NCBI GenBank assembly: GCA_964459075.1
Contig: CAYWKE010000001.1
Coordinates: forward strand, 4,626 to 68,625
Source of the DNA: an uncultured Candidatus Saccharibacteria bacterium
Lineage (GTDB): Bacteria > Patescibacteriota > Minisyncoccia > Phycocordibacterales > UBA12088
Reading direction: 5' to 3'
DNA length: 64,000 bases
Part shown: piece after piece, positions 8,737-63,733 of the stretch
How the letters are laid out: every line of letters begins with the position of its first letter
Numbering within the stretch: the first letter of the stretch is position 1
Program-made: the position numbers and the translations under genes
Notes under the pieces: generated by a model
The model's input: the letters and a program-made list of their open reading frames with translations, nothing else
The model's database searches: none
Told to the model about the DNA's origin: nothing

Positions 8737-8738
8737 GG

Positions 8739-50564: not shown

Positions 50565-50571
50565 GTTCCCG

Positions 50572-51042
50572 TTATACCACGACCTTCCGCTCGCTCGCAG
50601 GGGAGCGCTGTGCAATACGTACGCGCATGTCCCGCCGGGTGCGACGCGCATCGAGGCGGAAGTTGAGCAGAATGAGCGAGAGCAGTGCCACACTCACCAG
50701 CGTGGTATAGAGGAGCGCGAAGGTGTTCCCTGCGTTGCCCGCCCGCGCCGGGAGTGGTGCAGGAGCATCGCGGGTCAGGGTCTGGAGCTCTGCCTCAGCT
50801 GCTGCGACCGCGCGCTCGCGCTCAGCAAGCTCACCCTCGCGGCGGGTGAGCTCAGCCGTGATCTGGTTGAGCTCGGTAGGAGCGACCGCGGCAGAGGTAC
50901 CGATCCCCGCTTGCTGCAGAGAGAGAGTCGAACGGGTAAGGGTCGTCCACGAGAAGGTGAGCGCGAGAGCGCACACGAGAGCGCCGACGAGAGCTAGCTC
51001 CCATCCACCCCGATTGTGCTGTACTCCGTGGTGGCGACGCAT
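50572..51042 (-). CDS. small two-TM protein with central coiled coil (hypothetical)
   Basis: ORF 50572..51288 trimmed to the ATG at 51040-51042 ('MRRHHGVQHNRGGWELALVGALVCALALTFSW...'), because the track start overlaps the upstream gene. Second TM 'FALLYTTLVSVALLSLILLNF'. Confidence 0.4.
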   Translation of the reverse strand: MRRHHGVQHNRGGWELALVGALVCALALTFSWTTLTRSTLSLQQAGIGTSAAVAPTELNQITAELTRREGELAERERAVAAAEAELQTLTRDAPAPLPARAGNAGNTFALLYTTLVSVALLSLILLNFRLDARRTRRDMRVRIAQRSPASERKVVV

Positions 51043-51056
51043 AGTATCACTATACC

Positions 51057-52160
51057 TCAGGAGAAGAAGAGGAAGATCCCCACGAGGACGAGAATGGTCA
51101 GTGACAGGAAGACGAGCATGACCGATGAGAGTCGTGAGGCGAAGGAGACCGGCGCAGGACCCTTCGCGCGGTAGCCGGCTTGCTTGAGCTGTGCACGCAC
51201 GTAGAGACGCGCACCACCCCACACGATGAGGAAGAACAGGAGCAGTCCGCCAAACGCGATACCGAGCTCCTTGGTCGGAATGACCCAAAAGCTGGTCTCA
51301 CGGGTGATGCTCTGCTTGCGGTCGACCCCGTAGGAGACGGTGATGCGTGCATCATAGCGTCCCAGGAAGAAGCCCTCCTCAGGTTCCCACGTTGTTTGGT
51401 AGCGACGCTCCCCGCCGGGCGAGGCCCCACCGCGCCCGCCTGGATTGACCTCGAGCTTGGCGACCTCATTGCCGAGCATGTCCTCAATGGTGAGGATGCC
51501 GACAGGCCGCTGGAGGACCGAGCCGGTGTTCTCCACGACCGTGGTGAAGATCGCAGGTGGGTACTGGTAGAGTGAGCGGTCAGTGGAGAACTGGGTGATC
51601 TTGAGATCCTCAACGATGTCACCATTGATCTGAATGTTCATGAGGGAGGCAACCTGGAACCCTATCCCAGCCCCCGAGCTCTGCACCCGATCGGCTTGAC
51701 GGTCGAGCACAATAGCTCCGAAGTGCCCTCCAGGGGGTGAATTTGCTGGCGGCGAGATCACGTACCCGATACTGTCGCTTTGCCCGGGTGCGAGGGTAAC
51801 CTGGGAGCGCGTGAGCGTCACCCACGAGGCGAGCGTGAGTCCCGTCTCATCATCGCCCGTGGCGAAGCGGGGCTTGCCATCGATGTCGGTCGACTCGACG
51901 TTGCGCGAGAAGAGGTAGTAGGTCTGGGTCTCATCACTGACGTTCGTGACCGTCACCTCGCCCGACAGCGTCTCCCCCGGATCGATACGTTCCTCGATCA
52001 GGGTCGGTTGCATCTGTGCACCGATCTGCTGGGCTTCTACTCGCTCAACACACGCCACGCCGAACGTGCACAGCGCAAGCAGGGCGATAGCGCCAACGCG
52101 CCAAGCCCACGCATGGGCGACGGTGCGAAACGCAAAGGGGGATTCGATCATACCTTCCAT
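51057..52160 (-). CDS. DUF916/DUF3324-like cell-surface protein with C-terminal TM anchor (paralog family B)
   Basis: The ORF-track start (52214) is a TTG. ATGs at 52158-52160 ('MEGMIESPF') and 52149-52151 are preferred. Signal 'AWAWRVGAIALLALCTFGVACVERVEA'. Ectodomain '...VTVTNVSDETQTYYLFSRNVESTDIDGKPRFATGDD...LAPGQSDSIGYVISPPANSPPGGHFGAIVL'. C-terminal TM 'FGGLLLFFLIVWGGARLYV' plus a second hydrophobic segment. Confidence 0.55.
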   Translation of the reverse strand: MEGMIESPFAFRTVAHAWAWRVGAIALLALCTFGVACVERVEAQQIGAQMQPTLIEERIDPGETLSGEVTVTNVSDETQTYYLFSRNVESTDIDGKPRFATGDDETGLTLASWVTLTRSQVTLAPGQSDSIGYVISPPANSPPGGHFGAIVLDRQADRVQSSGAGIGFQVASLMNIQINGDIVEDLKITQFSTDRSLYQYPPAIFTTVVENTGSVLQRPVGILTIEDMLGNEVAKLEVNPGGRGGASPGGERRYQTTWEPEEGFFLGRYDARITVSYGVDRKQSITRETSFWVIPTKELGIAFGGLLLFFLIVWGGARLYVRAQLKQAGYRAKGPAPVSFASRLSSVMLVFLSLTILVLVGIFLFFS

Positions 52161-52276
52161 ATAGTTAGGGACAATATGCTCGCCAGTGTACCCCAGGTCA
52201 ACAACTCGTACCAAGTGGCGCTATACACAAAGACCCGCACGTGTGCGGGTCTGTGTGTCATAAGCGCCAAGCGTCT

Positions 52277-53470
52277 CTAGAAGACCGGAGTTGCAACGTA
52301 CGTAAGTGTTGCAGTGTAGTCGTCTGCTGCTTCCTGCAGCGTTCCGATCTCGATCTTGTAGCCAACGCGTGTGAAGCTCTCCCCTGAGACAGGTGCCGAC
52401 GTGTAGCTGACCGCTTCACTGTTATAGAACACCTCTACCGGGTTGTTCACGAAGTTACCGACGTAACTCGAGGTTCCAACACCGCCAAAGTCAAGCGCGG
52501 TGCCCACATCGTCGTCATCCGAGGTCAAACCCCAGTGACCATACGTGTTGGGTACACCAAAGTTGTTGAGGGGATTCGCCCAGGGCGTACCTACCGGGAC
52601 CTCAGAGCCGTTGTTGAACGGATCGATGGTCGCTGTGTTACCTGCCGTCAGCGTTTGATCCGCCTCGACCGTCACCGTGAAGCCGTTGAGGGCATTGGTG
52701 TCGATCCTGAGCTCCTGCGCGAGGAACCTCGGCTGATTCGTTTGCAAGATGCCGAAGGCAACCGAAGTTGCTGTTGTGGATGCGTACGTCGCGAGAGGCT
52801 CATCGTTGACCGTTGTGCCTGAGGCAACACCAGCGATGGTGAAGGTGAGAATGGTCTCGACCTCTGCGGTCACAGTAACGTCGTCGATGACCGCAACGCG
52901 GGTATCGCCCGAGTCTGCCATGGTCCCAGCGACCTCGATGACGTACGAGTCTGCGACGTTGGGATTGGCGATATAATTGCCGTTCCCTCCGACCACGATC
53001 TGTACGACCGTGCCGGTCGCGATCTCGTCAGGTGGCGTATCTGAGGGACACACCGTGAGTTCAACGGTGTCTGTGACGTTATCAACATCGCTCACGTACA
53101 TCTGGTTCGTTACGCCGTTGTTACACGCAAGGTCGTTCGCGATCTGCGTGATACCTCCTCCCGGTACAGATGCTACCGTCACATCTGAGGTCGAAAGAGA
53201 CCCGAAGTCGAAGTCGAGGTCTCCGTCGACGGGATCGAAGGTGATCACTATCGTCTCACCTGCGTTGATCGCGCTCGAAAGCTCGAACTGGATCGTGTGC
53301 GTTGCCGTCGCGCCCAGATCGGAATCTGAGATCGTGTCGGTCACGTCAATGAGCGCTGCGGCGTCTGCCGTGTGGATCCAGTTGGGCAGGCCAAGCGACC
53401 AAGCGAGTAATGCCGCAATGACCGCAAGGACCAATGCCTTGGAGCGGAACTGCGAAAGATCTGTCGTCAT
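52277..53470 (-). CDS. secreted surface protein with WxL-like C-terminal domain
   Basis: 397 aa. Signal 'ALVLAVIAALLAWSLGLPNWIHTADAAA'. C-terminal ~110 aa: 'TYGHWGLTSDDDD...DYTATLTYVATPVF'. Gene 56504.. has the same arrangement (a W-G-L/Y motif about 70 aa before a '(D/Q)Y(T/S)xx(L/I)xY(V/I)xxP(V/T)F' end). Confidence 0.5.
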   Translation of the reverse strand: MTTDLSQFRSKALVLAVIAALLAWSLGLPNWIHTADAAALIDVTDTISDSDLGATATHTIQFELSSAINAGETIVITFDPVDGDLDFDFGSLSTSDVTVASVPGGGITQIANDLACNNGVTNQMYVSDVDNVTDTVELTVCPSDTPPDEIATGTVVQIVVGGNGNYIANPNVADSYVIEVAGTMADSGDTRVAVIDDVTVTAEVETILTFTIAGVASGTTVNDEPLATYASTTATSVAFGILQTNQPRFLAQELRIDTNALNGFTVTVEADQTLTAGNTATIDPFNNGSEVPVGTPWANPLNNFGVPNTYGHWGLTSDDDDVGTALDFGGVGTSSYVGNFVNNPVEVFYNSEAVSYTSAPVSGESFTRVGYKIEIGTLQEAADDYTATLTYVATPVF

Positions 53471-53506
53471 GCGTAAAATGCTAGCTAGCGTTTCACTTGT
53501 AATAGC

Positions 53507-53526
53507 GAGTTCGCAGCGGCGAACTC
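53507..53526 (-). promoter_or_regulatory. hairpin in the putative 5' leader of gene 52277..53470
   Basis: 8-bp inverted repeat GAGTTCGC/GCGAACTC with loop AGCG, 37 nt upstream of the ATG at 53470. A TATACT element lies further upstream at 53652-53657. Confidence 0.3.
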
Positions 53527-53711
53527 ATGACGAGCGTGATCGACCTCCCAGCGAGGTACGCACCACCGATTACTGAGCAAAGCCCGTTGGGATATCGAGG
53601 TTTGCTTGATGGGGCGCGGGTTCAATCGCTGAAGTATCAAGCTCACAAATTAGTATACGTCCACATGACGCTGTGTGAGAACACGCGCTTGTGGATAACG
53701 CAACTCTGTGG

Positions 53712-55211
53712 TCAGGGGAGGTCGCCCGCCGCTGCAGGCACGAAGCGTCCATCGGGTTCTTGGATCTCTATCTCAAAGTCACGCGAGGGTGCGAAGACCT
53801 CACTGAAAAAGTGTACGCCTGCGATGAAGGTGATCCCGAGGAGAATGAGGAAGAGGAAGAAGTAGCGATACGTCACGAGGAACGTCGCGAAGGAGAGGTC
53901 GGGCTCGTGCGTGTGCTGCGCTTGGTGCTGTGCCGCGCGCTGCGCCCGTGTCGAGCTCGGTTCGCTCCTGATGCCTTCGTGCTTCTTGTAAGGCGCGTGC
54001 TCCACCCTCGCCGCTTCCCCATCTTGGTGCACATCACGTGCACCGAGTGAGCGCCTGAGGTCGACCGCGCCTTGGGTCAAGGGGCGCACGAGGGTTCCCA
54101 GCCGCAGCGATGGCTTGGTGTGCGGCTCCGCGTGCTCCGGTGTGTGTGGTGCCGGTTGTGCTACTCCTGCACGCTCTTCGTGCGTAGGCTTTTTCTCATC
54201 CTGCCGAGGAAGCGTAGGAATACCCAGCCGCTGTGCCTCAAGCCGCAGAGCTCGCCGCACGTACATCCGCACCAGCCACACCAACAGCACGAGTGCGAGA
54301 AGTATGCCACCTCCCACACGCACGATGTCCCATACCGGGACGATCCAGAAGATCGCCTCGCGCGTGACGCTGTGCTTCTCTCCCGAGCCGTAGGAGATGG
54401 TTGCAATGGCTCGGTAGCGCCCGAAATCGTACGTGCTGTCACTTCCCTGCCACGAGAAGGTGAACCGGCGGGTCTGCTCAGGGAGGACGTTGCCGAAGTT
54501 CGTCGCCTGGTTTATGGCTATCTGGCCTCGCTCTTGCCCCCACATGTTCTCAATGGTGATGATGCCTTGAGGACGCAGGTGGACATTCCCCGTATTCTGG
54601 AAGCGCATGGTGAATGACGCAGCTGCTTCGGGAGCAATGAAGGGCTCGGCAAAGAAATCGCGAATGAGGCCGCGCTCCTCGACCTCGCCCGCAACGCGCA
54701 TGAGGATGAGTGACGCGACCGAGCTCGTGATGGTGACCTCCCCGCCTTGGGTGGGCTCAGGGGGCTCGGTCGCGACCAGCAGTGAGGCATAGTGGCCACC
54801 CGGCGAGGCGTCCTCGGGAACCACGATGGAGAACGGTATCCGCTCGGTCGAACCGGGCGGCACCGTGATCTGGCCACTCCCGATGAGGATCCACTCTGGG
54901 AGCGTGAGCCCCCCAGAGCTCTCAGGAGCCGGCACGAGCCGGGGCCGACCGAACTCGTCCTGAGCCTCGAACCCCACTGGCGTGACGTAGAGCGTGAGGG
55001 GGTAATTGTTGCTGTTGACGATAGCAAGCGAGCTCGACCAGGTCTCTCCGGGCGAAACTGACACTTGGTAGAGCGGTGGCGTGACCGTCAGCGCGAGGGT
55101 CTCTCCACTTGTCTGCGCCCCTCCCCAGAGAGGTACCAGCAGACTAAGCGCGAGCAGTGCGGTGAGAGCGAGCCTACGAACGCTTGGAAAGGTGTACGAC
55201 ATGGTGGGCAT
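53712..55211 (-). CDS. DUF916/DUF3324-like cell-surface protein, C-terminal TM anchor with long His/Arg/Pro-rich cytoplasmic tail (paralog family B)
   Basis: ORF 53712..55379 trimmed to the ATG at 55209-55211 ('MPTMSYTFPSVRRLALTALLALSLLVPLWGGAQT', signal peptide). Ectodomain 'LYQVSVSPGETWSSSLAIVNSNNYPLTLYVTPVGFEAQDEFGRPRLVPAP...ITVPPGSTERIPFSIVVPEDASPGGHYASLLVATEPP'. TM 'GGGILLALVLLVWLV'. A second hydrophobic helix 'YFFLFLILLGITFIAGVHFF' lies near the C-terminus. Confidence 0.55.
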   Translation of the reverse strand: MPTMSYTFPSVRRLALTALLALSLLVPLWGGAQTSGETLALTVTPPLYQVSVSPGETWSSSLAIVNSNNYPLTLYVTPVGFEAQDEFGRPRLVPAPESSGGLTLPEWILIGSGQITVPPGSTERIPFSIVVPEDASPGGHYASLLVATEPPEPTQGGEVTITSSVASLILMRVAGEVEERGLIRDFFAEPFIAPEAAASFTMRFQNTGNVHLRPQGIITIENMWGQERGQIAINQATNFGNVLPEQTRRFTFSWQGSDSTYDFGRYRAIATISYGSGEKHSVTREAIFWIVPVWDIVRVGGGILLALVLLVWLVRMYVRRALRLEAQRLGIPTLPRQDEKKPTHEERAGVAQPAPHTPEHAEPHTKPSLRLGTLVRPLTQGAVDLRRSLGARDVHQDGEAARVEHAPYKKHEGIRSEPSSTRAQRAAQHQAQHTHEPDLSFATFLVTYRYFFLFLILLGITFIAGVHFFSEVFAPSRDFEIEIQEPDGRFVPAAAGDLP

Positions 55212-56433
55212 CTGATGGTGGCGCGGACCTGCCCAGAGCGACGGTGTGTACACCGTCAGCGGGTCCCGTACGCTTGTTCGTTTCTGTGCGGCGGACAAGG
55301 TGTTCAGGCGTCGAGGCGCGCACTGGTGTGCGTCCCGTGAGTGCAACGGGCGGGGGTGCAGCAGGTGTCTGTGGTGCACGAGTTGGCGAGAGCGCTACGT
55401 GATGTTCACGGGGTAGTGGCGCAGGAGCCACCGACGCGCCATCCTCCCAGGGTGAAGCGTACTCACCCCCCGCATCCTGCTCGTCATCCTCATCGTACCC
55501 GTAGGAGCGCGGAGACGCTGCCCCAGCGTAGGCAAAGCGGTACGTCAGCTTGAGGTGAACGAGGTAGGTGACCGAACCGATCAGGACCAGCAAGAGGAAG
55601 AATCCGATCATGACCTCGCGCCACGGGAAGACCCAGAAGTACACCGTGTCCTGTACGGTGCCGGTCTGTCCGTACTCGACATCGAGGAACGCCTTGTACT
55701 TCCCGAAGCGACCAGAGGCATCCCAGGCGCTTGCAAGGTGCTGCCGTGAATTGGGCGCGATCGAGGAACCTTGCTCATTCGCTGAGAGGGTGGCCACCTC
55801 CTGGCCACGGCGATTGTAGATACGGATCTCCCCACGAGGGATGAGGGTGCGGTTGCCAACGTTCTCAAGGTTGTAGGTGAATGTCGCGGTGGTGCCCGAG
55901 AAGATCTGCTCGTCGGGGAGGAACATGGAGAGCTGTAGGCGCTCCCGCGCATCGTCCTCGACCTCGACCGTCAGCACGATCTCCTCAAGATCCTTACTCC
56001 CTTGAGCAAGGACGCGATTACTACCGGCGCCAAAGGTCAGGAGTGCGTGGTAGATGCCGGGGCGTGCTTTGAGGTTGATGTGGATGAGGTAGGGCACCTG
56101 CACGCTCTCTTGCGGCTCGAGCTCGATCACACCGCGCGATATCTCGAACCAGTTCGCGAGTGATCCCTCCTTGTTCGCGCCTGGGGGAAGCTGCTCTGAG
56201 TCCGGCCCTGCGGCGGGATCAAAATCGTAGACACTTGCGTACAGACCGATCTTGCGCTCGGTCGTGTTCGTGATGGTGAGCGTGCCCTTGATGATGTCAC
56301 GAGGCTTCCCCTTCTCGTTGAGAATGAGAGGTGCCACGGTGAAGCTGGTCGCTGCCACGGCGGCATGGGGAGCGGACAGGCCCACAAGCACGCCCGCCAG
56401 TACGAGGGTCGCCAGAAAACGCATACTGCTCAT
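55174..56433 (-). CDS. DUF916/DUF3324-like cell-surface protein with C-terminal TM anchor and Pro-rich tail (paralog family B)
   Basis: ORF 55174..56697 trimmed to the ATG at 56431-56433 ('MSSMRFLATLVLAGVLVGLSAPHAAVAATSF', signal peptide). Ectodomain '...GTLTITNTTERKIGLYASVYDFDPAAGPDSEQLPPGAN...LEPQESVQVPYLIHINLKARPGIYHALLTF'. TM 'VMIGFFLLLVLIGSVTYLV'. The 3' end overlaps the next gene by ~37 nt. Confidence 0.55.
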   Translation of the reverse strand: MSSMRFLATLVLAGVLVGLSAPHAAVAATSFTVAPLILNEKGKPRDIIKGTLTITNTTERKIGLYASVYDFDPAAGPDSEQLPPGANKEGSLANWFEISRGVIELEPQESVQVPYLIHINLKARPGIYHALLTFGAGSNRVLAQGSKDLEEIVLTVEVEDDARERLQLSMFLPDEQIFSGTTATFTYNLENVGNRTLIPRGEIRIYNRRGQEVATLSANEQGSSIAPNSRQHLASAWDASGRFGKYKAFLDVEYGQTGTVQDTVYFWVFPWREVMIGFFLLLVLIGSVTYLVHLKLTYRFAYAGAASPRSYGYDEDDEQDAGGEYASPWEDGASVAPAPLPREHHVALSPTRAPQTPAAPPPVALTGRTPVRASTPEHLVRRTETNKRTGPADGVHTVALGRSAPPSDAHHVVHLSKRS

Positions 56434-56503
56434 TGTACGGGTGATACAGGTGGCGCGAAAGGGATGGTCGTGCATAACGGTAAGAACAAAAAGGAACAAA
56501 AAG

Positions 56504-59500
56504 CTAGAACGTAGGGATGATGATGTACTGGATGCTCGTCGAGTACTGACCGGGGGGCTGATCGTCCGACACCTCGACACGGTACACGATGTCGTGGGAC
56601 TCCCCTTCGACCGGCGTTCCGCTGTAGACGACCTCCTCAAGTTCAAGCGAGAACGCTGCGTAGGAGTCGTCGAGCAAGAATCGAGTAGACCCGCCACCGA
56701 GAGTGTTGTCCCCAGCGTGGTACCCCCAGCACCCCGTGAACGCAGTAAGGTCGCACGCGCTGCTCCAGGAAAGTGGCGCAGTGTTGCTTGCGGCCACGGT
56801 CGGGATGACCCCTCCGAGATCGCTCATGAACTGCATGCGCTTGCCGAGGAGGATCTGGTAGCCCCGGGGCGCATTCGTCGAGACCGTGAGGCGCTGCGCA
56901 GCGCGCGACGAGGTGCCGAAGTTGAGGTTCCCGAAGGGCACTGAGGTGGCGCTCGTTTGCACATCGGTCACGATACCCTCGGTCGAGCTACCCGCTGACA
57001 CGCCTGCGATCGAGAATGAGAGAGACGCTCCTTCGGTCGTGAGCGACGGGTAGCTCGAGCTGCCATTGGGAGGAATGGGGGTATTCTGCAGCGTATCGTA
57101 CAGGCGGAAGAAGTACGTGCGGTTCCCCGGCGCACCAGCGTGACGGACGGTGAACTCGTGCTCGGCAGCGGCGTTGGCTTGGATCTCAAAGGTGATAGGG
57201 CCTTCCGCCGAGAGCACGCCTACGTCCGAGGTGGCGAGGTAGCCAACGCGCTCGTTGGTGTGGGTGCGCTCCCCATCGTCGCGCTCGTCGATCGCAAAGC
57301 TCGTTGAGGTAGGAGCCGCGACCTCGTAGCGCACCCAGCCGCCTTCAGCGCCGTTGCGCGTCTGCTTACTCGCGAGAATGAGCGGGTCGCCCATGAACGT
57401 ATCGAAATCGAACGCTTCTGCGTACCACGGAATATCCGTCCACCCGGTGACCAGGGTCGACGTGGTCGCCGCAACGAGGTCGAGGTCGTTATTCCCGAAC
57501 ATCCCCGCATCGAGTGCGACCCACCCGAACACTTCAGGCGCAGCGGGTTCGCGGGTCTCACCATCAGGCACCTCGATGGCGCAGGTGAACTGACCTGCGG
57601 TGACCCCGTACTGGCTCGCGGTCAAAAAGTCGGGGAGAGAGGTGTTGTTGTCACTCTGGAGCGCCGTGAGGAGGACGGGCGGAGCCGTGAAGGCCTGTGC
57701 GAAGGTACAGGTCGCATCACTCGTGCTTACGACCGCATTCCCATAGTACTCACTCAACTCCGCAAGCCCCGCGTCGACCAGCACACCTCCGGGCAAGACG
57801 TAGTCGCCCGCTTCCATGACGAGGTAGCTCACGCGCTCGAGTCCGTGGTCATCGAGCTCGTTGTCGGGCTCTGCGACCCGCACCGTAAAGGAGGTCGCGG
57901 AGGTCGCAGTGATGATCGCGGCAGCGGGGTCATTCGCAGGAGCACCGGTCGAGTCACCGGTGATGGCCTCGGCAATGACGACCGGGTTCTCGTAGGTGCC
58001 GGTGAGGTTTATGAGAACGGGGGTCGCCCCTACGAGCGCCGTGCCGACCTCACCCACGGTCTGGGGCACGAACGAGCGTTCGTTATGGGTGCCGCACCCG
58101 TCGCCTACCCCCGCAACACACGCGTCGGCCTCAGCGAAGATCGCACTCGGGATCGTTTCGTGCTCAACACCCCCGCCGTCTGCGTAGCAGAAGAGCGACT
58201 GCCCCTCAACACACTGGTCGGCATCAACAACATCGAACACCTCGCCCGAGAAGTCCGAGGTCTCCGAGAACTGGAGGCGCGATTTGAGGAACCCAGAAGA
58301 GCCCGAGGTCTCCGCGACCATGATGCGCAACTTGATCTCGTTGTTGTACGTAAGGTCGGTCGGCGCGGTGTTACTCGCCGCAAGCGCAACGGTAGGCGTT
58401 GTGGAGGTCGCATCATCGAACCACTGCCACGACCCTGACTCCAGCGAGAAGCCGCTAGTGTAGAGCGTCGGGTAGTACACGTAGTCGTCGAGTGTCGTTT
58501 GATCCGCACGCACCATGCGGAAGCAGTAGTACGTGGATTCCGTCGCCCCGTTGTTCTGCACGACCCAGTCGTAGACGACGTCCTCACCGATAGCCACCCG
58601 GTATGGATTGACGACCGAGAGTCCATCCTCCTCGTACGTTCCCGCTCGATCACCGACCGAGAGAATGAGGTCCCCTACGGTGGGAGGGTCCCCCGAGAGC
58701 GCCGCGCCATCTGCGGGGCTCGCATTGAAGCCGCGCCAAGGAGCTGATGAAGAGCCGGGAAGCCCAAGGTTCTTCCAGCCCGTTGATGCTGAACACGAGC
58801 CCGCGCGCTCGACCCACTGCAGCCGAAACTGCGCCCCAGCTGCGGTCAGCACACCCCCTGCCACCTGCACGCTCATGCGAATGCGAAGCGTCTGTCCAGG
58901 ACCTGGCGGCTCATCAACGGGCGTGATCGCGGTGAACTCACCCAGGCTCGCCAACCCTTCCGGCCACGCGTCGGTGGGCAGAAGTGCGTCATTGTTCACG
59001 AAGAACTGGTAGTAGTTCTGCGTGAGGGTACGCTGAGCGGTGGGCCACTCAACCACCTCTACGCGGTAGGTGCGCGTCTGGCTGACCGCATCTGAGACGA
59101 AGAACTCGAACTGCGTCGTTGAGATGATGGAGTAGCTGATCATCGGGCGCGGGAAGCGCGATCCTGTTCCCGAGACGCGATTGTTCATGAACATCGACGC
59201 AGCAGTGACCTCGTCAAGGGTCGTGTTGAGCGCACGTGCTTCTTGCGTCGGTGACGTTGGTTCATTGTGGGTATCCTGGAACCGGGTGACCTCCATCACA
59301 TCACCTGAGGCCTGGAGGTTCTCGATGACCCACGCGACCCCCGTGTGCAAACCGGGGTTATCGGCACCCGGCTCCAAGCGAAAGAGTATCTCGGTCGTAC
59401 TGGCGATCCATACTTCTTGCCCGAACTCCTCGAGGTTGGCATCAGTGCCCGAGCGTTTCTGGGTATGGATGAAGGCGCGTGAGGTATCAGTGAGCGAAAT

Positions 59501-62500
59501 CGGCTCGGGCTCATCGACGATATCCGATACGTACGCGTGCTCGATGCGCTGTACACTCCAGTTCGATCCACGAAACTCAACGACCGCAACTGAAACGGCC
59601 GCTGTGTCGCCGCCCGTGAGATCGCGCACCAGCGTTGCTTGGTCCGTTGAGGAAGAGTAGCTCGCGGTGGTCTGCGTGGTGTTGTACGCCGTTCCGGTAT
59701 CATCCCCTGCTGCTGCCGTGATGAAGACAGCTACGTTGTCCTTGTTCGTGATGCTGGTAAGGGGCGGGGTCGAGGTCGAGGTTTGCACTGAGTTCATGGT
59801 CATCGGTGCCGCGTAGTGGACCACTATCTCGTTGTCACCCCCCGTGGGACCGATGTACTCGATGATCTCCCACGCGAGGTAGGTATCATCCACCGTCCCG
59901 AATCGCGCGAACTCGATCCCCGAGGCGAAGTCATTTGGGTTGGTAATGTAGACCGTCACATCATCCACGTTCTGGTTCCCCGTCCCGCCCGTCGAGAGAC
60001 CTGCGCCGGTCTCGTGGGTGACGGTGAGGCGTACGTAGGCGCGCGATGGTGTGCGCGGTACGACGTAGTCGACCCCGGCCACGAGCTGCTTCGTCGTACT
60101 CCCCACATCGATCGTGGTGGTGCCGCGCTGCACGAAGAAGTCTTGGTTAGGCCGAATGGACCCTTGTGCGTACGTGCTATATCCCTCAAGTGGCGAGCCG
60201 GCGTCCGTCAGGCGGAAGCAGTAGTCGGTGTCGAGGTCTGCCTGCGAGGTCGCCTCGATCGAGTACTCAAGCTCAACGAACTCACCCGGCGAGAGTGTGA
60301 GGGCTCCCGTCTCGCTCGTTGACTCACGCACACCTCCGTTGCTCACCTCGAAGTCACCTGAGGGTGGATTGGTGAGTCCGCCGTCCGCCTCGGGGATGTC
60401 GGTCGTGTTCGTTGCCTCAACGATATTGTCGGAGAGCGCCATGTCCCAGTCCCCGCCGGTGTCACCGACATCACTCCACCCCGAGGCCGCTCCACAGCTT
60501 CCCGGATTCTCCGCGTACTCGAGCCGCAGCTGCTTGGGGGCTGACGTGGCAAGCCCGGTGTTGTGTACCCCCACCCGCAGACGGTGCGGCTCGGCGCGCA
60601 CGACGTTGGTGAAGGGCGTGTCTTCGACCCCACCGGTCATCGACGTCGCTCCGGTCTCATTCCCGTCGTCATTGCGCCAGTGGAAACCGAACTGGTCAAG
60701 CGTCTCGCCCTGGATCGTGGTCGCGCCGGGTATCTCGACCGCAACGTTCGGAGCGACCGCGGCACCTCCAGCGTCAACGTCGGTCTGCGGATTCGTGATC
60801 TCAAGCTCGATGGTCTCACCGTTACTCGCCAAGGTGGTGATGTCCATGACCGGGTAGAGACAGATGGCCTGCGTCGAGGATGCTTCGAGCGAATCCGTGA
60901 AGGTCGACACGCCGTTCGGGCCAGAGAAGCCGTTGCCGTCGGTCGCGCCGAACTGCGCTTCGCCCCCACCAAAGCTCTCGCCGGTGCAGTCGTGGGGTGC
61001 AGTGGTATCGAGGTCGTAGTACAGCTCGATGTTCTCCAAACCCGTCGAACCATCGACCGTCCCCGCCTCAGCAAGCGTGATCTCGGTGATGAGATGGCTG
61101 TCACCCGGGGTGGTATCGGTGATGACGAACCCACCGCCTAGGTAGTTCCCGCTCATGCTCTTGTCGAGCGCAGCCACCTGCGTCCCCGTCGCACTAACCA
61201 GAAGGTCGGCGATGATGGTGACCTCGGGGTACGCGTCGTAGACATCAAGCGGCGTACCTCCGCGAGACGCACGGAAGCAGTAGGTCGTTCCCTCGATCGC
61301 GCTTGGGGTCGAGCGTAGCGAGAACTCGAATTCTGCTTGATCATTCGCAGCGAGCGCGAGTGAGCCGGTCTGCGAGGTCTCGTCACGCACGCCGCCGTTC
61401 GCCACCAGGAAGGTTCGGCCATCATCGGAGACGCCGCCAGTCGACGTGCCGATGTTGGTGGTGTTGGTGCCTTCGGTGAGATTGGTGCTCGTCGCGATGT
61501 CCCAGTCGCCGCCGACCGCGCCCACGTCGACCCATCCGATCGATGTTGAGCAGAGGCCGGTATTTGCCGCGTACTCGATGCGGTACGTCGAGGCAGGCGC
61601 GGCCGCGCCACCGGTGTTACCGATCCCCAAGCGCAGTCGCCGCGCACTTCCCTTGGCCAGGGTTGTAAGGGGCGTGTCCTCGACCCCACCCGTGGCTGAA
61701 GAGGCGGTGGTCTCCGTGCCGTTGTCGAGCCGCCAGTGGTAGTGCGCCTGCCTGAGGACTGAGCGCGTGAGAGTGGTCACGCCATCGATAGCGACCGGAT
61801 CGTCCGGATCGACCGCGCCCGCAAGTACACTAACCTCGGTCGAGGGATCGTCGATCGACAGCTCGATTGTTTGGCCATTGCTCGCATTCGACAGAACATC
61901 CACGACCACGTAGACACACATCGTCGAGGTAGTGCTGATGTTCACTGAACCGGTGAAGCTTGAAACACCATCAGGCCCCGAGAAGCCGTTGGTGTCGAGC
62001 GCGCCGAACTGACTGTCGAGCGCGCTGTAGCTCTCACTTGCGCAGTCGTACGGTGCCGAGGTATCGAGATCGTACCGCAACCGAATGTTGTCGAGTGCGT
62101 TCTGACCGTTGACCGTTCCTGACTCCGTGACCGTGATGCCCGTGATCGTCTCGGTGTCGCGACTTGCCGATAGGGCAAAGGCGCCGCCGACGTGGGTTTG
62201 GGTCGATGGAATGGTGATCGAGGTTGTCTGGGTGCCACGCGATCTCACGACGACATCTTCGGGAATGAGCGTGTCGAGTCGGACACCCTGTACCGCGTAG
62301 CGCTCTCCCACGAAGATGGAATTGGGGTCGTTATCCGATGAGAGGTTCGTATTCCTGAGCGAGACCGCGCTTCCCATCGTCAGGCCGTTGAGGAGGATAC
62401 CGTGAGAAGCACCCGCGTCGTTGTCACCAAAGCCGCGTTTGTACTTTCCGAACGAGCCGTACTGGTAGGGCCCTCCATCAACATGCCACGCCCACGAAGG

Positions 62501-63733
62501 ATACTGGCGCACGTTGTTCGTGGTACCGCCGTTGCCCCAGAACGAGCCCAAAAAGAGATAGTCGCCATCGCGCTCGATGGTGACGTTCTCACTATTGCTC
62601 GAGGTGCTGTGCGAGAAGGCTGTCGCGTCGACCTGCTGCTGCGTGTCCCAGGTGATGGGTTCGTTAACCGTGTCAGTGCGCAGTCCTCCGCCCGCTTCGT
62701 AGAGCTGCACGTACTCAGCGGTGTCGGGGAGTTTGGCGATCGAGATCGCTGCCTGGTCTGCCACTGTTGTTATCGCGCCGCACGCCGCACTGCCACACCC
62801 CACCTCAAGCGTGACTACCTGCCCGCTTGAGGTAGCCTCAATGATGCCCACGTAGGTCGCTGCGTGATCCTGTGTGCTGTCGGTCCCGCGAATGTAAGCC
62901 GAGGTCCGCACGCCCGGCAGCTCTACCCCATCTAGAGCGAGTCGCATGTTGTAGATGCGCCTACCCGTACCACTGTTGCGAAACATGACGTTTGCGGTGA
63001 CGAGGTAGTGCCCGGGGTCGGTCAGGGTGATGGCACTCCCCGAGCGAGAGAAGCTTGCAGGATCAAGCTCATCATTCGTGGTCCATACGAGCGGGGTGAA
63101 TGCCGTGGGAACCGTAAGCGAATCGGTCTTGCGAATGCGCGCGTAGTCCCACACCGTATCGAGTCGCAGAATGGTGAGTCCGGCCTCATTTGCGCGACGA
63201 CGCACGGTAGCGGTGTTGGCATCTGTTCGCTGCGCCTGTATGGAGATGGTCTCATTAGCGCCGGTCGTCTCAATGATCGCGGAGGCAGAGACGAGACACT
63301 CGTCTGTACCGTCTGTGCGGCGAATGTAACAAGTGCCCCGCCCATAGGCGATGGGTGAGCCGTTCTGGAGAATGCGACCCTGTATCTCGCTTCGATTGCT
63401 CCCACCGGTCGACTCCACACCGAAGTTGTATAAGACAAGGTAGTGCCCCGGATCAGCGAGCGTCACCGTGTTGTTCGCACCATTGATGGAGAAGCCCGCA
63501 CTCTCAGTGACCGGCGTATCGAAATCGAGAGTGACGTTGCTGGTCCCGATGGTCTCAAGGCCGGTCGCCTCGCGGTAGATGGCGTAGTCACCCACTGCAG
63601 CACGCCCCTCTCCACCCCACACGAAGAGGAGTGCTCCTACAGCAACGAGTGAAACAACGAGAAGACCCACGCCGCTACGGCGTGCTGCATGGGTTGCTTG
63701 GTATCTGCTTATGATCGCCCACGCCCTCCGCAT
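56504..63733 (-). CDS. giant (2409 aa) secreted surface protein with tandemly duplicated beta-domain modules and WxL-like C-terminal domain
   Basis: ATG at 63731-63733. N-terminal hydrophobic segment 'SGVGLLVVSLVAVGALLFVWGG'. Tandem ~350-aa modules each contain '...NI(R/E)L(R/Y)YDLDT(S/T)AP(Y/H)DC...', 'HWR(L/N)D(N/D)G(T/N)ET' and 'YCFR'. The C-terminus is 'GCWGYHAGDNTLGG...QYSTSIQYIIIPTF'. Confidence 0.75.
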   Translation of the reverse strand: MRRAWAIISRYQATHAARRSGVGLLVVSLVAVGALLFVWGGEGRAAVGDYAIYREATGLETIGTSNVTLDFDTPVTESAGFSINGANNTVTLADPGHYLVLYNFGVESTGGSNRSEIQGRILQNGSPIAYGRGTCYIRRTDGTDECLVSASAIIETTGANETISIQAQRTDANTATVRRRANEAGLTILRLDTVWDYARIRKTDSLTVPTAFTPLVWTTNDELDPASFSRSGSAITLTDPGHYLVTANVMFRNSGTGRRIYNMRLALDGVELPGVRTSAYIRGTDSTQDHAATYVGIIEATSSGQVVTLEVGCGSAACGAITTVADQAAISIAKLPDTAEYVQLYEAGGGLRTDTVNEPITWDTQQQVDATAFSHSTSSNSENVTIERDGDYLFLGSFWGNGGTTNNVRQYPSWAWHVDGGPYQYGSFGKYKRGFGDNDAGASHGILLNGLTMGSAVSLRNTNLSSDNDPNSIFVGERYAVQGVRLDTLIPEDVVVRSRGTQTTSITIPSTQTHVGGAFALSASRDTETITGITVTESGTVNGQNALDNIRLRYDLDTSAPYDCASESYSALDSQFGALDTNGFSGPDGVSSFTGSVNISTTSTMCVYVVVDVLSNASNGQTIELSIDDPSTEVSVLAGAVDPDDPVAIDGVTTLTRSVLRQAHYHWRLDNGTETTASSATGGVEDTPLTTLAKGSARRLRLGIGNTGGAAAPASTYRIEYAANTGLCSTSIGWVDVGAVGGDWDIATSTNLTEGTNTTNIGTSTGGVSDDGRTFLVANGGVRDETSQTGSLALAANDQAEFEFSLRSTPSAIEGTTYCFRASRGGTPLDVYDAYPEVTIIADLLVSATGTQVAALDKSMSGNYLGGGFVITDTTPGDSHLITEITLAEAGTVDGSTGLENIELYYDLDTTAPHDCTGESFGGGEAQFGATDGNGFSGPNGVSTFTDSLEASSTQAICLYPVMDITTLASNGETIELEITNPQTDVDAGGAAVAPNVAVEIPGATTIQGETLDQFGFHWRNDDGNETGATSMTGGVEDTPFTNVVRAEPHRLRVGVHNTGLATSAPKQLRLEYAENPGSCGAASGWSDVGDTGGDWDMALSDNIVEATNTTDIPEADGGLTNPPSGDFEVSNGGVRESTSETGALTLSPGEFVELEYSIEATSQADLDTDYCFRLTDAGSPLEGYSTYAQGSIRPNQDFFVQRGTTTIDVGSTTKQLVAGVDYVVPRTPSRAYVRLTVTHETGAGLSTGGTGNQNVDDVTVYITNPNDFASGIEFARFGTVDDTYLAWEIIEYIGPTGGDNEIVVHYAAPMTMNSVQTSTSTPPLTSITNKDNVAVFITAAAGDDTGTAYNTTQTTASYSSSTDQATLVRDLTGGDTAAVSVAVVEFRGSNWSVQRIEHAYVSDIVDEPEPISLTDTSRAFIHTQKRSGTDANLEEFGQEVWIASTTEILFRLEPGADNPGLHTGVAWVIENLQASGDVMEVTRFQDTHNEPTSPTQEARALNTTLDEVTAASMFMNNRVSGTGSRFPRPMISYSIISTTQFEFFVSDAVSQTRTYRVEVVEWPTAQRTLTQNYYQFFVNNDALLPTDAWPEGLASLGEFTAITPVDEPPGPGQTLRIRMSVQVAGGVLTAAGAQFRLQWVERAGSCSASTGWKNLGLPGSSSAPWRGFNASPADGAALSGDPPTVGDLILSVGDRAGTYEEDGLSVVNPYRVAIGEDVVYDWVVQNNGATESTYYCFRMVRADQTTLDDYVYYPTLYTSGFSLESGSWQWFDDATSTTPTVALAASNTAPTDLTYNNEIKLRIMVAETSGSSGFLKSRLQFSETSDFSGEVFDVVDADQCVEGQSLFCYADGGGVEHETIPSAIFAEADACVAGVGDGCGTHNERSFVPQTVGEVGTALVGATPVLINLTGTYENPVVIAEAITGDSTGAPANDPAAAIITATSATSFTVRVAEPDNELDDHGLERVSYLVMEAGDYVLPGGVLVDAGLAELSEYYGNAVVSTSDATCTFAQAFTAPPVLLTALQSDNNTSLPDFLTASQYGVTAGQFTCAIEVPDGETREPAAPEVFGWVALDAGMFGNNDLDLVAATTSTLVTGWTDIPWYAEAFDFDTFMGDPLILASKQTRNGAEGGWVRYEVAAPTSTSFAIDERDDGERTHTNERVGYLATSDVGVLSAEGPITFEIQANAAAEHEFTVRHAGAPGNRTYFFRLYDTLQNTPIPPNGSSSYPSLTTEGASLSFSIAGVSAGSSTEGIVTDVQTSATSVPFGNLNFGTSSRAAQRLTVSTNAPRGYQILLGKRMQFMSDLGGVIPTVAASNTAPLSWSSACDLTAFTGCWGYHAGDNTLGGGSTRFLLDDSYAAFSLELEEVVYSGTPVEGESHDIVYRVEVSDDQPPGQYSTSIQYIIIPTF

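What the first reader, a model, noticed from the sequence alone, without database searches (positions are those of the whole stretch)
51057..63733. WxL-like secreted proteins (one giant) co-clustered with four paralogous DUF916/DUF3324-like TM-anchored proteins
Genes 51057.., 53712.. and 55174.., plus 17382.. elsewhere, share an architecture. They have a signal peptide, a beta-rich ectodomain with repeated '(V/I)T(V/L).P(G/Q).S..(I/V).(F/Y).(I/V)..P..A.PGG(H)(Y/F)' segments, a single C-terminal TM helix, and a Pro/Arg/His-rich cytoplasmic tail. They are interleaved with secreted proteins whose C-termini carry a W-G-(L/Y) motif about 70 aa before a conserved '...Y(T/S)xx(L/I)xY(V/I)xxP(V/T)F' end (52277..53470 and the 2409-aa 56504..63733). 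From established knowledge this mirrors Firmicute Csc/WxL loci, in which non-covalently wall-bound WxL proteins pair with DUF916/DUF3324 membrane proteins. Finding that arrangement, with a 2.4-kaa WxL-like giant, in a high-GC genome that also carries cohesin/dockerin genes is unusual. It may mark a distinct surface-complex system. I score this 0.7.
Basis: partly seen in the sequence, partly recalled or inferred. Interest (0 to 1): 0.7.

Follow-up and report, generated by a model that had tools for sequence, protein, structure and literature searches.

The report
Pam-like pilus operon in CPR bacterium
This is probably a conserved operon for a thin surface filament in a tiny candidate-phyla-radiation bacterium: membrane-anchored chaperones related to the Firmicute "WxL-interacting" proteins, a shaft pilin, a giant probable tip adhesin, and a probable base subunit that may be tethered to the cell by a dockerin-cohesin pair.

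Summary
Three membrane-anchored paralogues, plus a fourth at 17382, are interleaved with a 397-aa and a 2409-aa secreted protein that share a C-terminal domain.

- **Anchored proteins:** they are true homologues of Firmicute WxLIP (DUF916+DUF3324+TM). Evidence: hhalign 98.4 %, the best PDB fold hits are the solved E. faecium WxLIP followed by PapD/FimC-type chaperones, and PF06030 matches 23/37 family members.

All named relatives are Patescibacteria, mostly Paceibacteria. Of the 80 best of 321 related loci, 54 are this operon type and 44 carry all three chaperone classes; their order is fixed: C-terminal-domain-only protein (about 450 to 2400 aa), chaperone C, chaperone B, pilin, chaperone A, small 2-TM protein, pilin-N-domain+dockerin protein, Hsp20, cohesin-TM protein. 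The unit therefore spans 46511-63733.

Best model: a usher-less donor-strand pilus with a giant tip adhesin and a dockerin/cohesin-tethered base. It is a new variant of a known kind; polymerisation and subunit roles are inferred.

The parts
56504..63733 (-). 2409-aa secreted giant and putative tip adhesin. It has a signal/anchor helix, about 2236 aa of beta-rich modules (including a BclA_C/C1q-like region near the N-terminus), and a C-terminal pilin-type domain (aa 2237-2409). It lacks the pilin N-domain and linker.
   Evidence: ORF. BclA_C E 1.8e-7. CTD match to the pilin family HMM, positions 198-386, E 2.9e-20. NF058581 E 0.0096. The orthologous position in 29 related loci is held by CTD-only proteins of about 440-2383 aa. 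The common ~450-aa form equals giant residues ~1756-1887 plus 2180-2409.
55174..56475 (-). Class-C membrane-anchored WxLIP/PapD-like chaperone paralogue (433 aa as called).
   Evidence: BLASTP and HMM paralogy. Gene call. This class sits first after the tip gene in 43 related loci.
53712..55211 (-). Class-B membrane-anchored WxLIP/PapD-like chaperone paralogue (499 aa as called), with a long His/Pro/Arg-rich cytoplasmic tail and a second C-terminal hydrophobic helix.
52277..53470 (-). 397-aa shaft pilin candidate. Layout: conserved signal peptide, N-terminal beta-sandwich (aa ~41-194), an unpaired conserved linker 'IDDVTVTAEVETI' (195-207), and a C-terminal Pam-pilin-type domain (208-397).
   Evidence: 503 homologues, with all named ones CPR. 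AF2 pLDDT 92. NF058581 E 4.2e-7 covering model positions 2-148 of 148. 31/81 family members hit NF058581.
52231..52252 (-). Perfect 9-bp GC-rich hairpin 25 nt after the pilin stop codon. It is a putative attenuator or transcript stabiliser that would set pilin excess over downstream genes.
   Evidence: A perfect stem of at least 8 bp lies within 90 nt of the pilin stop in 34/86 related pilin genes, against 6/430 random segments.
51057..52160 (-). Class-A membrane-anchored WxLIP/PapD-like chaperone (367 aa as called). Layout: signal helix, DUF916-like and DUF3324-like beta-sandwiches, a TM helix and a second C-terminal helix.
   Evidence: AF2 pLDDT 89.5. Foldseek top hits 9i1y/9i25_C WxLIP at E 6e-13, then CfaA, CsuC, Caf1M, FimC and PapD. 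hhalign to Firmicute WxLIP 98.4 %. Always immediately downstream of the pilin (50 cases).
50572..51042 (-). 156-aa protein with an N-terminal TM helix, a coiled-coil-like Ala/Glu-rich segment and a C-terminal TM helix. It is a conserved operon member of unknown role.
   Evidence: Translation. Gene call. Homologue in the same position in 28 of 80 related loci.
48660..50564 (-). 634-aa donor-only subunit and putative filament terminator/adaptor. It carries the pilin signal peptide, N-domain and linker-like 'IIEQVTAGA', then an Ig-like (Big_6) region, a Gly/Ser-rich spacer and a C-terminal dockerin. It has no pilin C-domain.
   Evidence: Pilin HMM positions 16-193, E 4.3e-15. Big_6 E 1.5e-7 and a weak dockerin hit. 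35/39 NTD-only proteins in related loci share the C-terminal part. 21/21 C-termini hit Pfam Dockerin_1, best E 1.5e-13.
48026..48502 (-). Hsp20/alpha-crystallin small heat-shock protein with no signal peptide. It is syntenically conserved between the dockerin and cohesin genes.
   Evidence: Pfam HSP20 E 1.5e-9. Present in the same position in 20 related loci.
46511..48007 (-). 498-aa putative membrane receptor for the dockerin. Layout: signal peptide, cohesin domain (aa 46-153), Ig-like region, TM helix (~aa 405-430) and a cytoplasmic coiled-coil tail.
   Evidence: Pfam Cohesin 34.3 bits against a cut-off of 24.1, E 3.3e-8. Sequence. 31 of 41 dockerin genes with at least 3.5 kb of downstream sequence are followed within 4 kb by a cohesin-like gene.
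17382..18539 (-). Class-D WxLIP-like chaperone paralogue. It belongs to a second, separately conserved operon type (13351-46347), not to the operon above.
   Evidence: HMM E 3e-48. It is the single chaperone class in 15 'type-2' loci.

Best explanation
Window 46511-63733 (minus strand) is one conserved nine-gene operon of a Paceibacteria-type CPR bacterium. It most likely builds a Pam-like, usher-less, chaperone-assisted surface filament.

**Shown**
- The three TM-anchored proteins are ancient paralogues (classes C, B and A) of the WxLIP family. They have a two-domain PapD/FimC-like fold plus a membrane anchor.
- The 397-aa protein has an N-domain, a linker and a C-domain. Its C-domain is related to the Pam pilin C-terminal domain.
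- The 2409-aa protein carries only the C-domain.
- The 634-aa protein carries only the N-domain and linker, followed by a dockerin.
- A cohesin-TM protein is encoded two genes further on.
- The gene order is conserved across many genomes.

**Inferred mechanism**
1. All subunits are exported by Sec.
2. A membrane-anchored chaperone caps the open groove of each C-domain with a donated strand, as solved for WxLIP-WxL and PapD-pilin.
3. The giant, which has an acceptor groove but no donor linker, starts the fibre and ends up at the tip as the adhesin.
4. Pilins are added at the base. The linker strand of each incoming pilin displaces the chaperone from the preceding subunit's groove.
5. The N-domain/linker/dockerin protein, which is donor only, terminates growth.
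6. Its dockerin locks onto the membrane-anchored cohesin protein and tethers the finished fibre to the cell.
7. A hairpin after the pilin gene gives pilin excess over the downstream genes.
For: **Chaperone identity**
- hhalign 98.4 %, E 4.5e-15, over 250 columns against Firmicute WxLIPs.
- Foldseek top hits are solved WxLIP (9i1y, and 9i25_C bound to WxL, E ~6e-13), followed by the chaperone-usher chaperones CfaA, CsuC, Caf1M, FimC and PapD (E 1e-10 to 2e-7, TM 0.5-0.58).
- PF06030 hits 23/37 family members. The best PDB sequence hit is EfmWxLIP1.

**Pilin identity**
- NF058581 CPR_Pam_pilin_C at E 4.2e-7 with end-to-end model coverage; 31/81 family members hit it.
- The AF2 model (pLDDT 92) shows two beta domains joined by an unpaired, highly conserved linker. 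This is the architecture the Pam preprint reports for PamA/B.

**Modular split**
- In 30 CTD-only proteins, 24 HMM matches start at positions 196-199. In 39 NTD-only proteins, 31 matches end at positions 188-199.
- So the donor linker travels with the N-domain and the acceptor with the C-domain.

**Synteny**
- Of 80 related loci, 54 are of this type. 44 have all three chaperone classes, and 43 show the order C-B upstream of the pilin with class A downstream.

**Dockerin and cohesin**
- 21/21 C-termini hit Dockerin_1.
- The cohesin hit is above the Pfam cut-off.
- 31/41 dockerin genes are followed by a cohesin-like gene.

**Hairpin enrichment** after pilin genes is 34/86 against 6/430.

**Literature**
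- WxLIP is predicted, and now solved, to complete the WxL sandwich with a donated strand (PDB 9i25).
- Pam pili assemble by donor-strand exchange with TM-anchored chaperones.
Against: - No filament, polymerisation or strand exchange has been shown for this family. No complex prediction could be run.
- The NF058581 score (30 bits) is below NCBI's cut-off of 55.
- PamA-D sequences and structures (25PZ, 25QA) were not available for direct comparison.
- There is no PamR-like TM terminator.
- Three chaperones for what look like two groove-bearing subunits is unexplained.
- Firmicute WxLIP systems, the closest proven relatives of the chaperones, are not known to form pili.
- Whether 'DDVTVTA' or the following 'ILTFTIAGV' strand is the donated strand is undetermined. 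If it is the latter, the giant would also be a donor and the 634-aa protein would not.
- The dockerin of the window protein itself is degenerate (18.9 bits against a cut-off of 22.9).
Confidence: 0.6

Rival explanations
1. A non-filamentous WxL/Csc-type surface complex. The membrane-anchored WxLIP homologues each hold one secreted partner (the 397-aa, the giant) on the cell surface in a stable 1:1 strand-complemented complex, as proposed for Firmicutes. There is no polymerisation, and the giant is simply a displayed adhesin.
For: - Homology of the anchored proteins to WxLIP is strong.
- The small-plus-large partner arrangement, with both sharing one C-terminal domain, mirrors short and long WxL proteins.
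- The solved 9i25 structure is a stable WxLIP-WxL complex.
- The number of chaperones (three) is close to the number of partner proteins.
Against: - The partners are not detectable WxL domains.
- The partner domain matches the Pam pilin C-domain, for which filaments are solved.
- The pilin has a conserved extra N-domain and an unpaired, strongly conserved linker.
- The clean split into acceptor-only and donor-only proteins is hard to explain without subunit-subunit strand exchange.
- Multiple tandem pilin copies occur in some loci, and a post-pilin hairpin is enriched. Both are typical of a polymerised major subunit.
Confidence: 0.22
2. A cellulosome-like, cohesin-dockerin scaffolded enzyme or substrate-capture complex. 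The beta-rich proteins would be carbohydrate-binding or scaffold modules rather than pilus parts.
For: - Cohesin and dockerin modules are genuine.
- The original Csc clusters were proposed to act in carbohydrate utilisation.
Against: - No glycoside hydrolase, CBM or other enzyme domain was found in any protein of the operon.
- There is only one dockerin and one cohesin per operon.
- The dockerin is fused to a pilin N-domain.
- The cohesin similarity of the pilin model is the generic beta-sandwich level.
Confidence: 0.05
3. Reverse polarity, or a different division of labour within a donor-strand fibre. For example, the dockerin subunit could be distal and bind cohesins on other cells or fibres, with the giant being the cell-proximal anchor. 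Alternatively, the three chaperone paralogues themselves could be structural base components.
For: - The donated strand is not identified.
- The giant has an N-terminal hydrophobic helix that could remain as an anchor.
- The cohesin protein family has several paralogues in the window.
Against: - In both Pam and chaperone-usher pili the acceptor-only subunit is the tip and growth is at the base (and established knowledge of Pap/Fim).
- The cohesin protein has a TM helix and cytoplasmic tail, which fits a cell-side anchor.
Confidence: 0.1

Closest known systems
Pam pilus of Candidatus Mycosynbacter amalyticus (Saccharimonadia, CPR); Troman et al., bioRxiv 10.64898/2026.03.03.709456
   Same: - CPR-restricted.
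[quoted passage not shown]
- The C-domain is related by sequence profile (NF058581).
- PapD/FimC-like chaperones carry a C-terminal TM helix, and there is no usher.
- An acceptor-only subunit is present (PamT there, the CTD-only protein here).
   Different: - Pilins are only sub-threshold to the Pam C-domain model.
- Three conserved chaperone classes instead of two.
- The acceptor-only subunit is a multi-domain protein of about 450 to 2400 aa, not a single domain.
- There is no PamR. A pilin-N-domain/dockerin protein plus a cohesin-TM protein take its position in the logic.
- Hsp20 and a small 2-TM protein are conserved members.
- No ATP synthase neighbourhood is present in the window.
- The host lineage is Paceibacteria/Parcubacteria rather than Saccharimonadia or Microgenomatia.
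Firmicute WxL / Csc clusters (WxLIP = DUF916 + DUF3324 + TM helix; short and long WxL proteins; PDB 9i1y, 9i25)
   Same: - The membrane-anchored two-domain protein is a true homologue across both domains.
- It is clustered with one small and one large secreted protein that share a C-terminal domain of about 170-190 aa.
- That domain ends in a Y-x3-(L/I)-T-aromatic strand.
- The system occurs in a monoderm envelope.
   Different: - Both Trp residues of the WxL motifs are absent.
- The small partner has an extra N-domain and linker.
- Several chaperone paralogues are present per locus.
- The dockerin/cohesin pair is added.
- No LPXTG or CscA-type members are present.
- Firmicute systems are described as wall-bound complexes, not fibres.
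Chaperone-usher pili of Gram-negative bacteria (Pap, Fim, CFA/I, Csu, Caf1)
   Same: - The chaperone fold is shared (Foldseek E down to 1e-10 to CfaA, CsuC, Caf1M, FimC and PapD).
- The logic is shared: acceptor-only tip adhesin, polymerising major subunit and donor-only terminator.
- A post-pilin hairpin is present.
   Different: - There is no outer membrane and no usher.
- The chaperone is membrane-anchored.
- The donor strand is an inter-domain linker rather than an N-terminal extension.
- Subunits have two domains.
Cellulosomal cohesin-dockerin anchoring (e.g. Clostridium thermocellum scaffoldin and anchoring proteins)
   Same: - A canonical duplicated Ca-binding dockerin sits at the C-terminus of a secreted protein.
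- A cohesin sits on a cell-anchored protein encoded nearby.
   Different: - No enzymes or CBMs are present.
- The dockerin is fused to a pilin module.
- The cohesin protein is anchored by a TM helix rather than SLH or sortase.
- The proposed role is tethering a fibre.

Membership tests
Firmicute WxL/Csc cluster | A WxLIP protein: DUF916 (PF06030) + DUF3324 (PF11797) + C-terminal TM helix | tested here: met
   - hhalign 98.4 %, E 4.5e-15, across both domains.
- Foldseek top hits are solved WxLIP 9i1y and 9i25_C.
- PF06030 hits 23/37 family members.
- A TM helix is present in the AF2 model.
- PF11797 itself never scored; the second domain is supported only by hhalign and fold.
Firmicute WxL/Csc cluster | At least two clustered proteins with a WxL domain (PF13731, two Trp-x-Leu motifs) | tested here: not met
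   - PF13731 hits 0/81 at E<=0.1.
- hhalign probability is 0.2-1.2 %, and HMM searches in both directions are non-significant.
- No Trp sits at either motif position (GFxV and LTYV instead).
- Caveat: solved long WxL is itself only E 0.03 to a small-WxL profile, so deep homology is not excluded.
Firmicute WxL/Csc cluster | Non-covalent peptidoglycan binding by the C-terminal domain | not testable with these tools
   Needs a binding assay.
CPR Pam pilus | [quoted passage not shown] | tested here: met
   AF2 model at pLDDT 92: beta domains at 41-194 and 208-397, with an unpaired conserved segment at 195-207. This is predicted, not solved.
CPR Pam pilus | C-domain belongs to NF058581 CPR_Pam_pilin_C | tested here: inconclusive
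   - E 4.2e-7, 30.2 bits, model positions 2-148 of 148, but the curated cut-off is 55 bits.
- 31/81 family members hit at E<=0.01.
- Giant E 0.0096.
CPR Pam pilus | PapD/FimC-like chaperones with a C-terminal TM helix, and no usher | tested here: met
   - Foldseek hits to CfaA, CsuC, Caf1M, FimC and PapD.
- The TM helix is seen.
- No usher-like Pfam hit was found in the window proteins of 200 aa or more that were scanned; the 6781-aa giant was not Pfam-scanned.
- Direct comparison with PamC/D sequences was not possible.
CPR Pam pilus | Acceptor-only tip subunit (PamT-like) and a TM-anchored terminator with a donor strand (PamR) | tested here: inconclusive
   - An acceptor-only protein is present (HMM match starts at position 198), but it is large and multi-domain.
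- No PamR-like protein is present. The donor-only function is carried by a dockerin protein and the TM anchor by a separate cohesin protein.
CPR Pam pilus | Assembly into helical filaments by donor-strand exchange | not testable with these tools
No multimer tool and no experiment were available.
Chaperone-usher pilus | Outer-membrane usher (PF00577) and a periplasmic soluble chaperone | tested here: not met
   No usher domain was found in the window proteins that were Pfam-scanned. The chaperone is membrane-anchored.
Cellulosome | Dockerin-bearing enzymes bound to cohesin-bearing scaffoldins | tested here: not met
   The dockerin (21/21) and the cohesin are real, but no catalytic or CBM domains are present in the operon.

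The most novel reading that the evidence does not exclude
Firmicute WxL/WxLIP clusters and CPR Pam pili may be two branches of one ancient monoderm 'anchored-chaperone, usher-less' donor-strand system. On this reading the WxL domain and the Pam pilin C-domain would be divergent versions of the same strand-accepting fold.

In Paceibacteria this system would have evolved a fibre that carries adhesins of up to about 2400 aa (possibly 6800 aa) at its tip. The fibre would be fastened to the cell by a dedicated dockerin-cohesin lock. That would be a structural, non-cellulosomal use of cohesin-dockerin in pilus anchoring.
Probability: 0.3. Interest if true: 0.8.

Novelty: new variant of a known kind. 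Interest (0 to 1): 0.6.

Why it matters
CPR bacteria are tiny episymbionts whose attachment to hosts is central to their biology, yet most of their surface proteins are unannotated. The Pam pilus was described only in 2026, and mainly for Saccharimonadia and Microgenomatia.

- **Reach.** This locus shows that a related but compositionally distinct operon is widespread in Paceibacteria, the largest CPR class. 321 loci were found among GTDB species representatives.
- **Annotation.** It gives roles to nine 'hypothetical' genes, including giant proteins.
- **Link between systems.** It connects the CPR chaperones to the Firmicute WxLIP family. This suggests that WxL clusters, which are virulence and colonisation factors of enterococci, listeriae and lactobacilli, may work by the same strand-complementation chemistry.
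- **Testable idea.** It proposes that a cohesin-dockerin pair anchors a pilus.

Tried and rejected
- **Direct sequence search of PDB.** The pilin and chaperone A gave no hits. Only profiles worked.
- **AFDB50 fold search.** It would have contained WxL models, but the library was unavailable.
- **Six attempts to link the pilin C-domain to WxL.** I tried Pfam on 81 members, hhalign with a 4-sequence and a 44-sequence WxL alignment, local hmmsearch --max in both directions, and NCBIfam on 31 WxL proteins. All were non-significant. I therefore rejected 'WxL domain' as a label and kept only a motif-level resemblance.
- **Second giant's C-terminal domain.** I tested the C-terminal domain shared by the 628-aa protein and the 6781-aa giant against the pilin C-domain and against WxL. 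No relation was detectable.
- **Source organism.** Cluster look-up to name it gave no name. Taxonomy rests on named homologues and loci.
- **Promoter-like sites.** They are not enriched over shuffles (5 found against 3.5 expected), so I draw no promoter conclusion.
- **Rejected readings.** I rejected a recent tandem duplication of the four anchored proteins. They are 21-32 % identical and correspond to four positionally conserved orthologue classes. I also rejected the idea that cohesin and dockerin are incidental to the genome.

Full report

Yes. All the ORFs lie on the minus strand at the stated coordinates.

The three neighbouring membrane-anchored proteins are clear paralogues (BLASTP):
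- 51057 vs 53712: E 2.5e-40
- 51057 vs 55174: E 4e-21
- 53712 vs 55174: E 2e-20

The distant copy at 17382 is related more weakly by BLASTP (E 1e-6), but convincingly with a family HMM (E 3e-48). The four are only 21-32 % identical.

Each protein has an N-terminal hydrophobic helix, two beta domains, a TM helix and a basic Pro/Arg/His-rich tail.

The 397-aa protein and the 2409-aa protein share their last 170-190 residues, including the terminal Y-x3-(L/I)-x-Y-x3-P-x-F (BLASTP 1e-9; family HMM 2.9e-20).

Gene calls on an identical public contig trim the over-long ORF starts to 51057-52160, 53712-55211 and 55174-56475. They also reveal a 156-aa gene at 50572-51042.

**2.

*The anchored proteins.* Single-sequence Pfam searches give only a sub-threshold DUF916 hit (PF06030, 17 bits against a cut-off of 27.3). 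There is no WxL and no DUF3324 hit. At family level the DUF916 call holds:
- 23 of 37 homologues hit PF06030, best E 2e-8.
- One homologue is annotated 'DUF916 domain-containing protein [Candidatus Paceibacterota]'.
- The family profile's best hit in all PDB sequences is EfmWxLIP1 (E 4.4e-4).
- A profile-profile comparison with four Firmicute plasmid WxLIPs (retrieved) gives 98.4 % probability, E 4.5e-15, over 250 columns spanning both domains.
- The AF2 model (pLDDT 89.5) finds the solved E. faecium WxLIP structures first (9i1y, and 9i25_C 'bound to long WxL', E ~6e-13). Next come the chaperone-usher chaperones CfaA, CsuC, Caf1M, FimC and PapD, and RbmA.

So these proteins are WxLIP homologues with a PapD-like two-domain fold and a membrane anchor.

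*The secreted partners.* The WxL label fails every test I could run:
- PF13731 hits 0 of 81 family members at E<=0.1.
- hhalign against WxL alignments gives 0.2 % and 1.2 % probability.
- Unfiltered HMM searches in both directions are non-significant.
- 31 WxL proteins do not hit the Pam model.

What remains is a collinear motif resemblance. ELRxDTNAxNGFxVTV aligns with DxRGTNxGWxLTV, and A..DYTATLTY aligns with A.TYxSTLTW, with similar spacing. This is suggestive but not evidence.

One caveat applies. Solved long WxL is itself barely detectable with a small-WxL profile (E 0.03), so deep homology is not excluded.

**3. What the partner domain is**

NCBIfam gives one specific match, NF058581 'CPR_Pam_pilin_C, Pam pilus system pilin subunit'.
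- For the 397-aa protein it scores E 4.2e-7 and covers the model end to end, at aa 233-397.
- That score (30 bits) is below the curated cut-off of 55 bits.
- The giant's last 43 residues also match, at E 0.0096.
- 31 of 81 family members hit the model.

The model derives from a 2026 preprint (10.64898/2026.03.03.709456). Its main points are:
- Cryo-EM of Ca. Mycosynbacter amalyticus filaments identified the pilins PamA and PamB.
- The proposed assembly factors are two FimC/PapD-like chaperones carrying a C-terminal TM helix (PamC/D), an acceptor-only tip subunit (PamT) and a TM-anchored terminator (PamR).

The AF2 model of the 397-aa protein (pLDDT 92) has the same plan. It shows beta domains at 41-194 and 208-397. 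They are joined by an unpaired segment, 'IDDVTVTAEVETI', that is among the most conserved parts of the family. The preprint does not mention WxL, DUF916 or DUF3324.

**4. Whose genome, and is the arrangement conserved?**

The 397-aa protein has at least 503 homologues. Every one that carries a name is from Patescibacteria or Parcubacteria. The chaperone homologues are named Paceibacterota, Giovannonibacteria and Parcubacteria.

A scan of GTDB species representatives found 321 loci. The best 80 are Kaiserbacteria, Lloydbacteria, Nomurabacteria, Paceibacteria/-ota, Parcubacteria, Minisyncoccia and generically labelled CPR MAGs. The window is therefore from a CPR bacterium, which explains the 'odd' mix of features. 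It is about 60 % G+C.

In those 80 loci I annotated six-frame ORFs with the two family HMMs and with the window's proteins. 54 loci are of the window's type, and 44 carry all three chaperone classes. The order is invariant:
1. C-domain-only protein
2. Chaperone class C (55174-like)
3. Chaperone class B (53712-like)
4. One to three pilin genes
5. Chaperone class A (51057-like)
6. A ~140-aa two-TM protein
7. A protein with the pilin N-domain that ends in a dockerin
8. Hsp20
9. A cohesin-TM protein

The real unit in the window is therefore 46511-63733, not 51057-63733. The four 'paralogues' are four ancient, positionally fixed orthologue classes.

**5. The modular split**

- **Acceptor-only proteins.** In 24 of 30 C-domain-only proteins the pilin-HMM match begins at positions 196-199. 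This is just after the linker.
- **Donor-only proteins.** In 31 of 39 N-domain-only proteins the match ends at positions 188-199. This is just after the linker (alignments).
- **The window's donor-only protein.** The protein at 48660-50564 keeps the conserved signal peptide, the N-domain and 'IIEQVTAGA'. It then continues into an Ig-like (Big_6) region and a dockerin.
- **The dockerin.** All 21 sampled C-termini of this protein class hit Pfam Dockerin_1 (best E 1.5e-13). They show the canonical duplicated DxNxDGxVNxxD loops.
- **The cohesin.** The protein at 46511-48007 has a cohesin above the Pfam cut-off (34.3 against 24.1 bits), followed by a TM helix and a cytoplasmic coiled coil. 31 of 41 dockerin genes with enough downstream sequence are followed by a cohesin-like gene.
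- **The giant.** It is an expanded form of a normally ~450-aa subunit. The common form corresponds to giant residues ~1756-1887 plus 2180-2409. The giant adds about 1750 N-terminal residues and a ~290-aa insert. Versions longer than 1000 aa occur in 7 of the 80 loci. They include a collinear 2383-aa orthologue in a Kaiserbacteria MAG.

**6. Mechanism**

*Shown:* the homologies, the predicted folds, the module boundaries and the synteny.

*Inferred:*
1. Subunits are exported by Sec.
2. A membrane-anchored chaperone caps each C-domain groove by strand complementation. This is the interaction predicted and now solved for WxLIP-WxL and classical for PapD.
3. The acceptor-only giant nucleates the fibre and becomes the distal adhesin.
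4. Pilins add at the base by linker-strand exchange.
5. The donor-only dockerin protein terminates growth.
6. The dockerin docks onto the membrane cohesin and replaces the chaperone as the tether.

A perfect 9-bp hairpin lies 25 nt after the pilin stop codon (52231-52252). It fits a major-subunit gene. Comparable hairpins follow 34 of 86 related pilin genes, against 6 of 430 random segments.

Weak points:
- No polymer has been shown.
- The donated strand is not identified.
- Three chaperone classes are unexplained.
- The window's own dockerin is degenerate.

I put 0.6 on the pilus model as a whole. I put about 0.85 on 'WxLIP-type chaperones plus Pam-type pilin domain' and about 0.4-0.5 on the tip, terminator and dockerin-anchor assignments.

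**7. Rivals**

- **A non-polymerising, WxL-style surface complex (0.22).** This fits the WxLIP homology. It does not explain the N-domain, the conserved linker, the donor-only/acceptor-only split or the tandem pilin copies.
- **A cellulosome-like complex (0.05).** This lacks any enzymes.
- **Reversed polarity (0.1).** This cannot be excluded without localisation data.

**8. Novelty**

Both parents are known: the WxL/WxLIP clusters and the Pam pilus. New here:
- A distinct, widely conserved Paceibacteria operon type whose pilins fall below the NCBIfam threshold.
- Direct evidence that CPR anchored chaperones are WxLIP homologues, a link the Pam preprint does not make.
- The conserved pilin-N-domain/dockerin plus cohesin-TM pair in place of PamR.
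- Giant variants of the acceptor-only subunit.

I rate this a new variant of a known kind, with interest 0.6.

Noticed in passing
window 13351-46347 (-): A second, separately conserved operon ('type 2') lies directly downstream. Its order is:
1. 6781-aa giant (26002-46347)
2. 313-aa coiled-coil ORF
3. fn3 protein (23469-24929)
4. MacB-type ABC ATPase (21866-23356) and FtsX permease (20651-21859)
5. 628-aa protein (18685-20571) sharing a C-terminal domain with the 6781-aa giant
6. Class-D WxLIP-like chaperone (17382-18539)
7. DUF4215/Big_6/dockerin protein (16207-17385)
8. Two cohesin-TM proteins (15144-16325 and 13351-15147)

The same order is seen in 8 of 8 type-2 loci inspected elsewhere. 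15 of the 80 loci are type 2.
   Followed up: partly
window 16207-16325: In all eight type-2 loci inspected in other genomes, a pilin gene of the 397-aa family sits between the dockerin gene and the first cohesin gene. In the window these two genes abut or overlap and the pilin gene is missing. The window's only copy of that pilin family is therefore 52277-53470.
   Followed up: partly
window 26002-46347 and 18685-20571: The C-terminal ~210-250 aa shared by the 6781-aa giant and the 628-aa protein (BLASTP 2e-8) shows no detectable relation to the pilin C-domain or to WxL by hhalign. It still sits next to a WxLIP-like chaperone, so it may be a further, unrecognised strand-accepting domain. The two giants also share internal modules (E 8e-24).
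   Followed up: partly
window 53360-53470 (pilin aa 1-37) and 50430-50564: The signal-peptide region of the pilin family is itself conserved: W24, G27 and P29 are near-invariant and A37 is invariant. It is shared with the N-domain/dockerin protein, where the HMM match starts at position 16. This is unusual for a plain Sec signal and may indicate dedicated processing or targeting.
   Followed up: no
window 48026-48502 (-): A cytoplasmic Hsp20 gene is conserved between the dockerin and cohesin genes in 20 related loci. Its role in a surface-fibre operon is unexplained.
   Followed up: no
window 50572-51042 (-): A 156-aa protein with two TM helices flanking an Ala/Glu-rich helical segment is conserved after chaperone A in 28 of 80 loci. 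Its function is unknown; it could be a membrane platform.
   Followed up: no
window 51057-52160 and 53712-55211: Chaperone classes A and B carry a second hydrophobic helix at the extreme C-terminus, after the cytoplasmic tail ('VSFASRLSSVMLVFLSLTILVLVGIFLFFS' and 'LSFATFLVTYRYFFLFLILLGITFIAGVHFF'). Classes C and D lack it.
   Followed up: no
window 1429-12489: The left part of the window carries ordinary metabolic genes: an AI-2E transporter, a CAP-domain protein, YjeF_N, enolase, a 2-hydroxyacid dehydrogenase, a PEP-utilising PPDK-family enzyme and a glycerate kinase-like DUF4147/MOFRL protein. This is consistent with a fermentative CPR genome.
   Followed up: no
PDB 9i25_A vs small-WxL profile: The solved 'long WxL' domain is only marginally detectable with a small-WxL profile (E 0.03), and not at all with a 31-sequence, mostly Enterococcus small-WxL alignment. 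WxL domains are therefore extremely divergent among themselves.
   Followed up: partly
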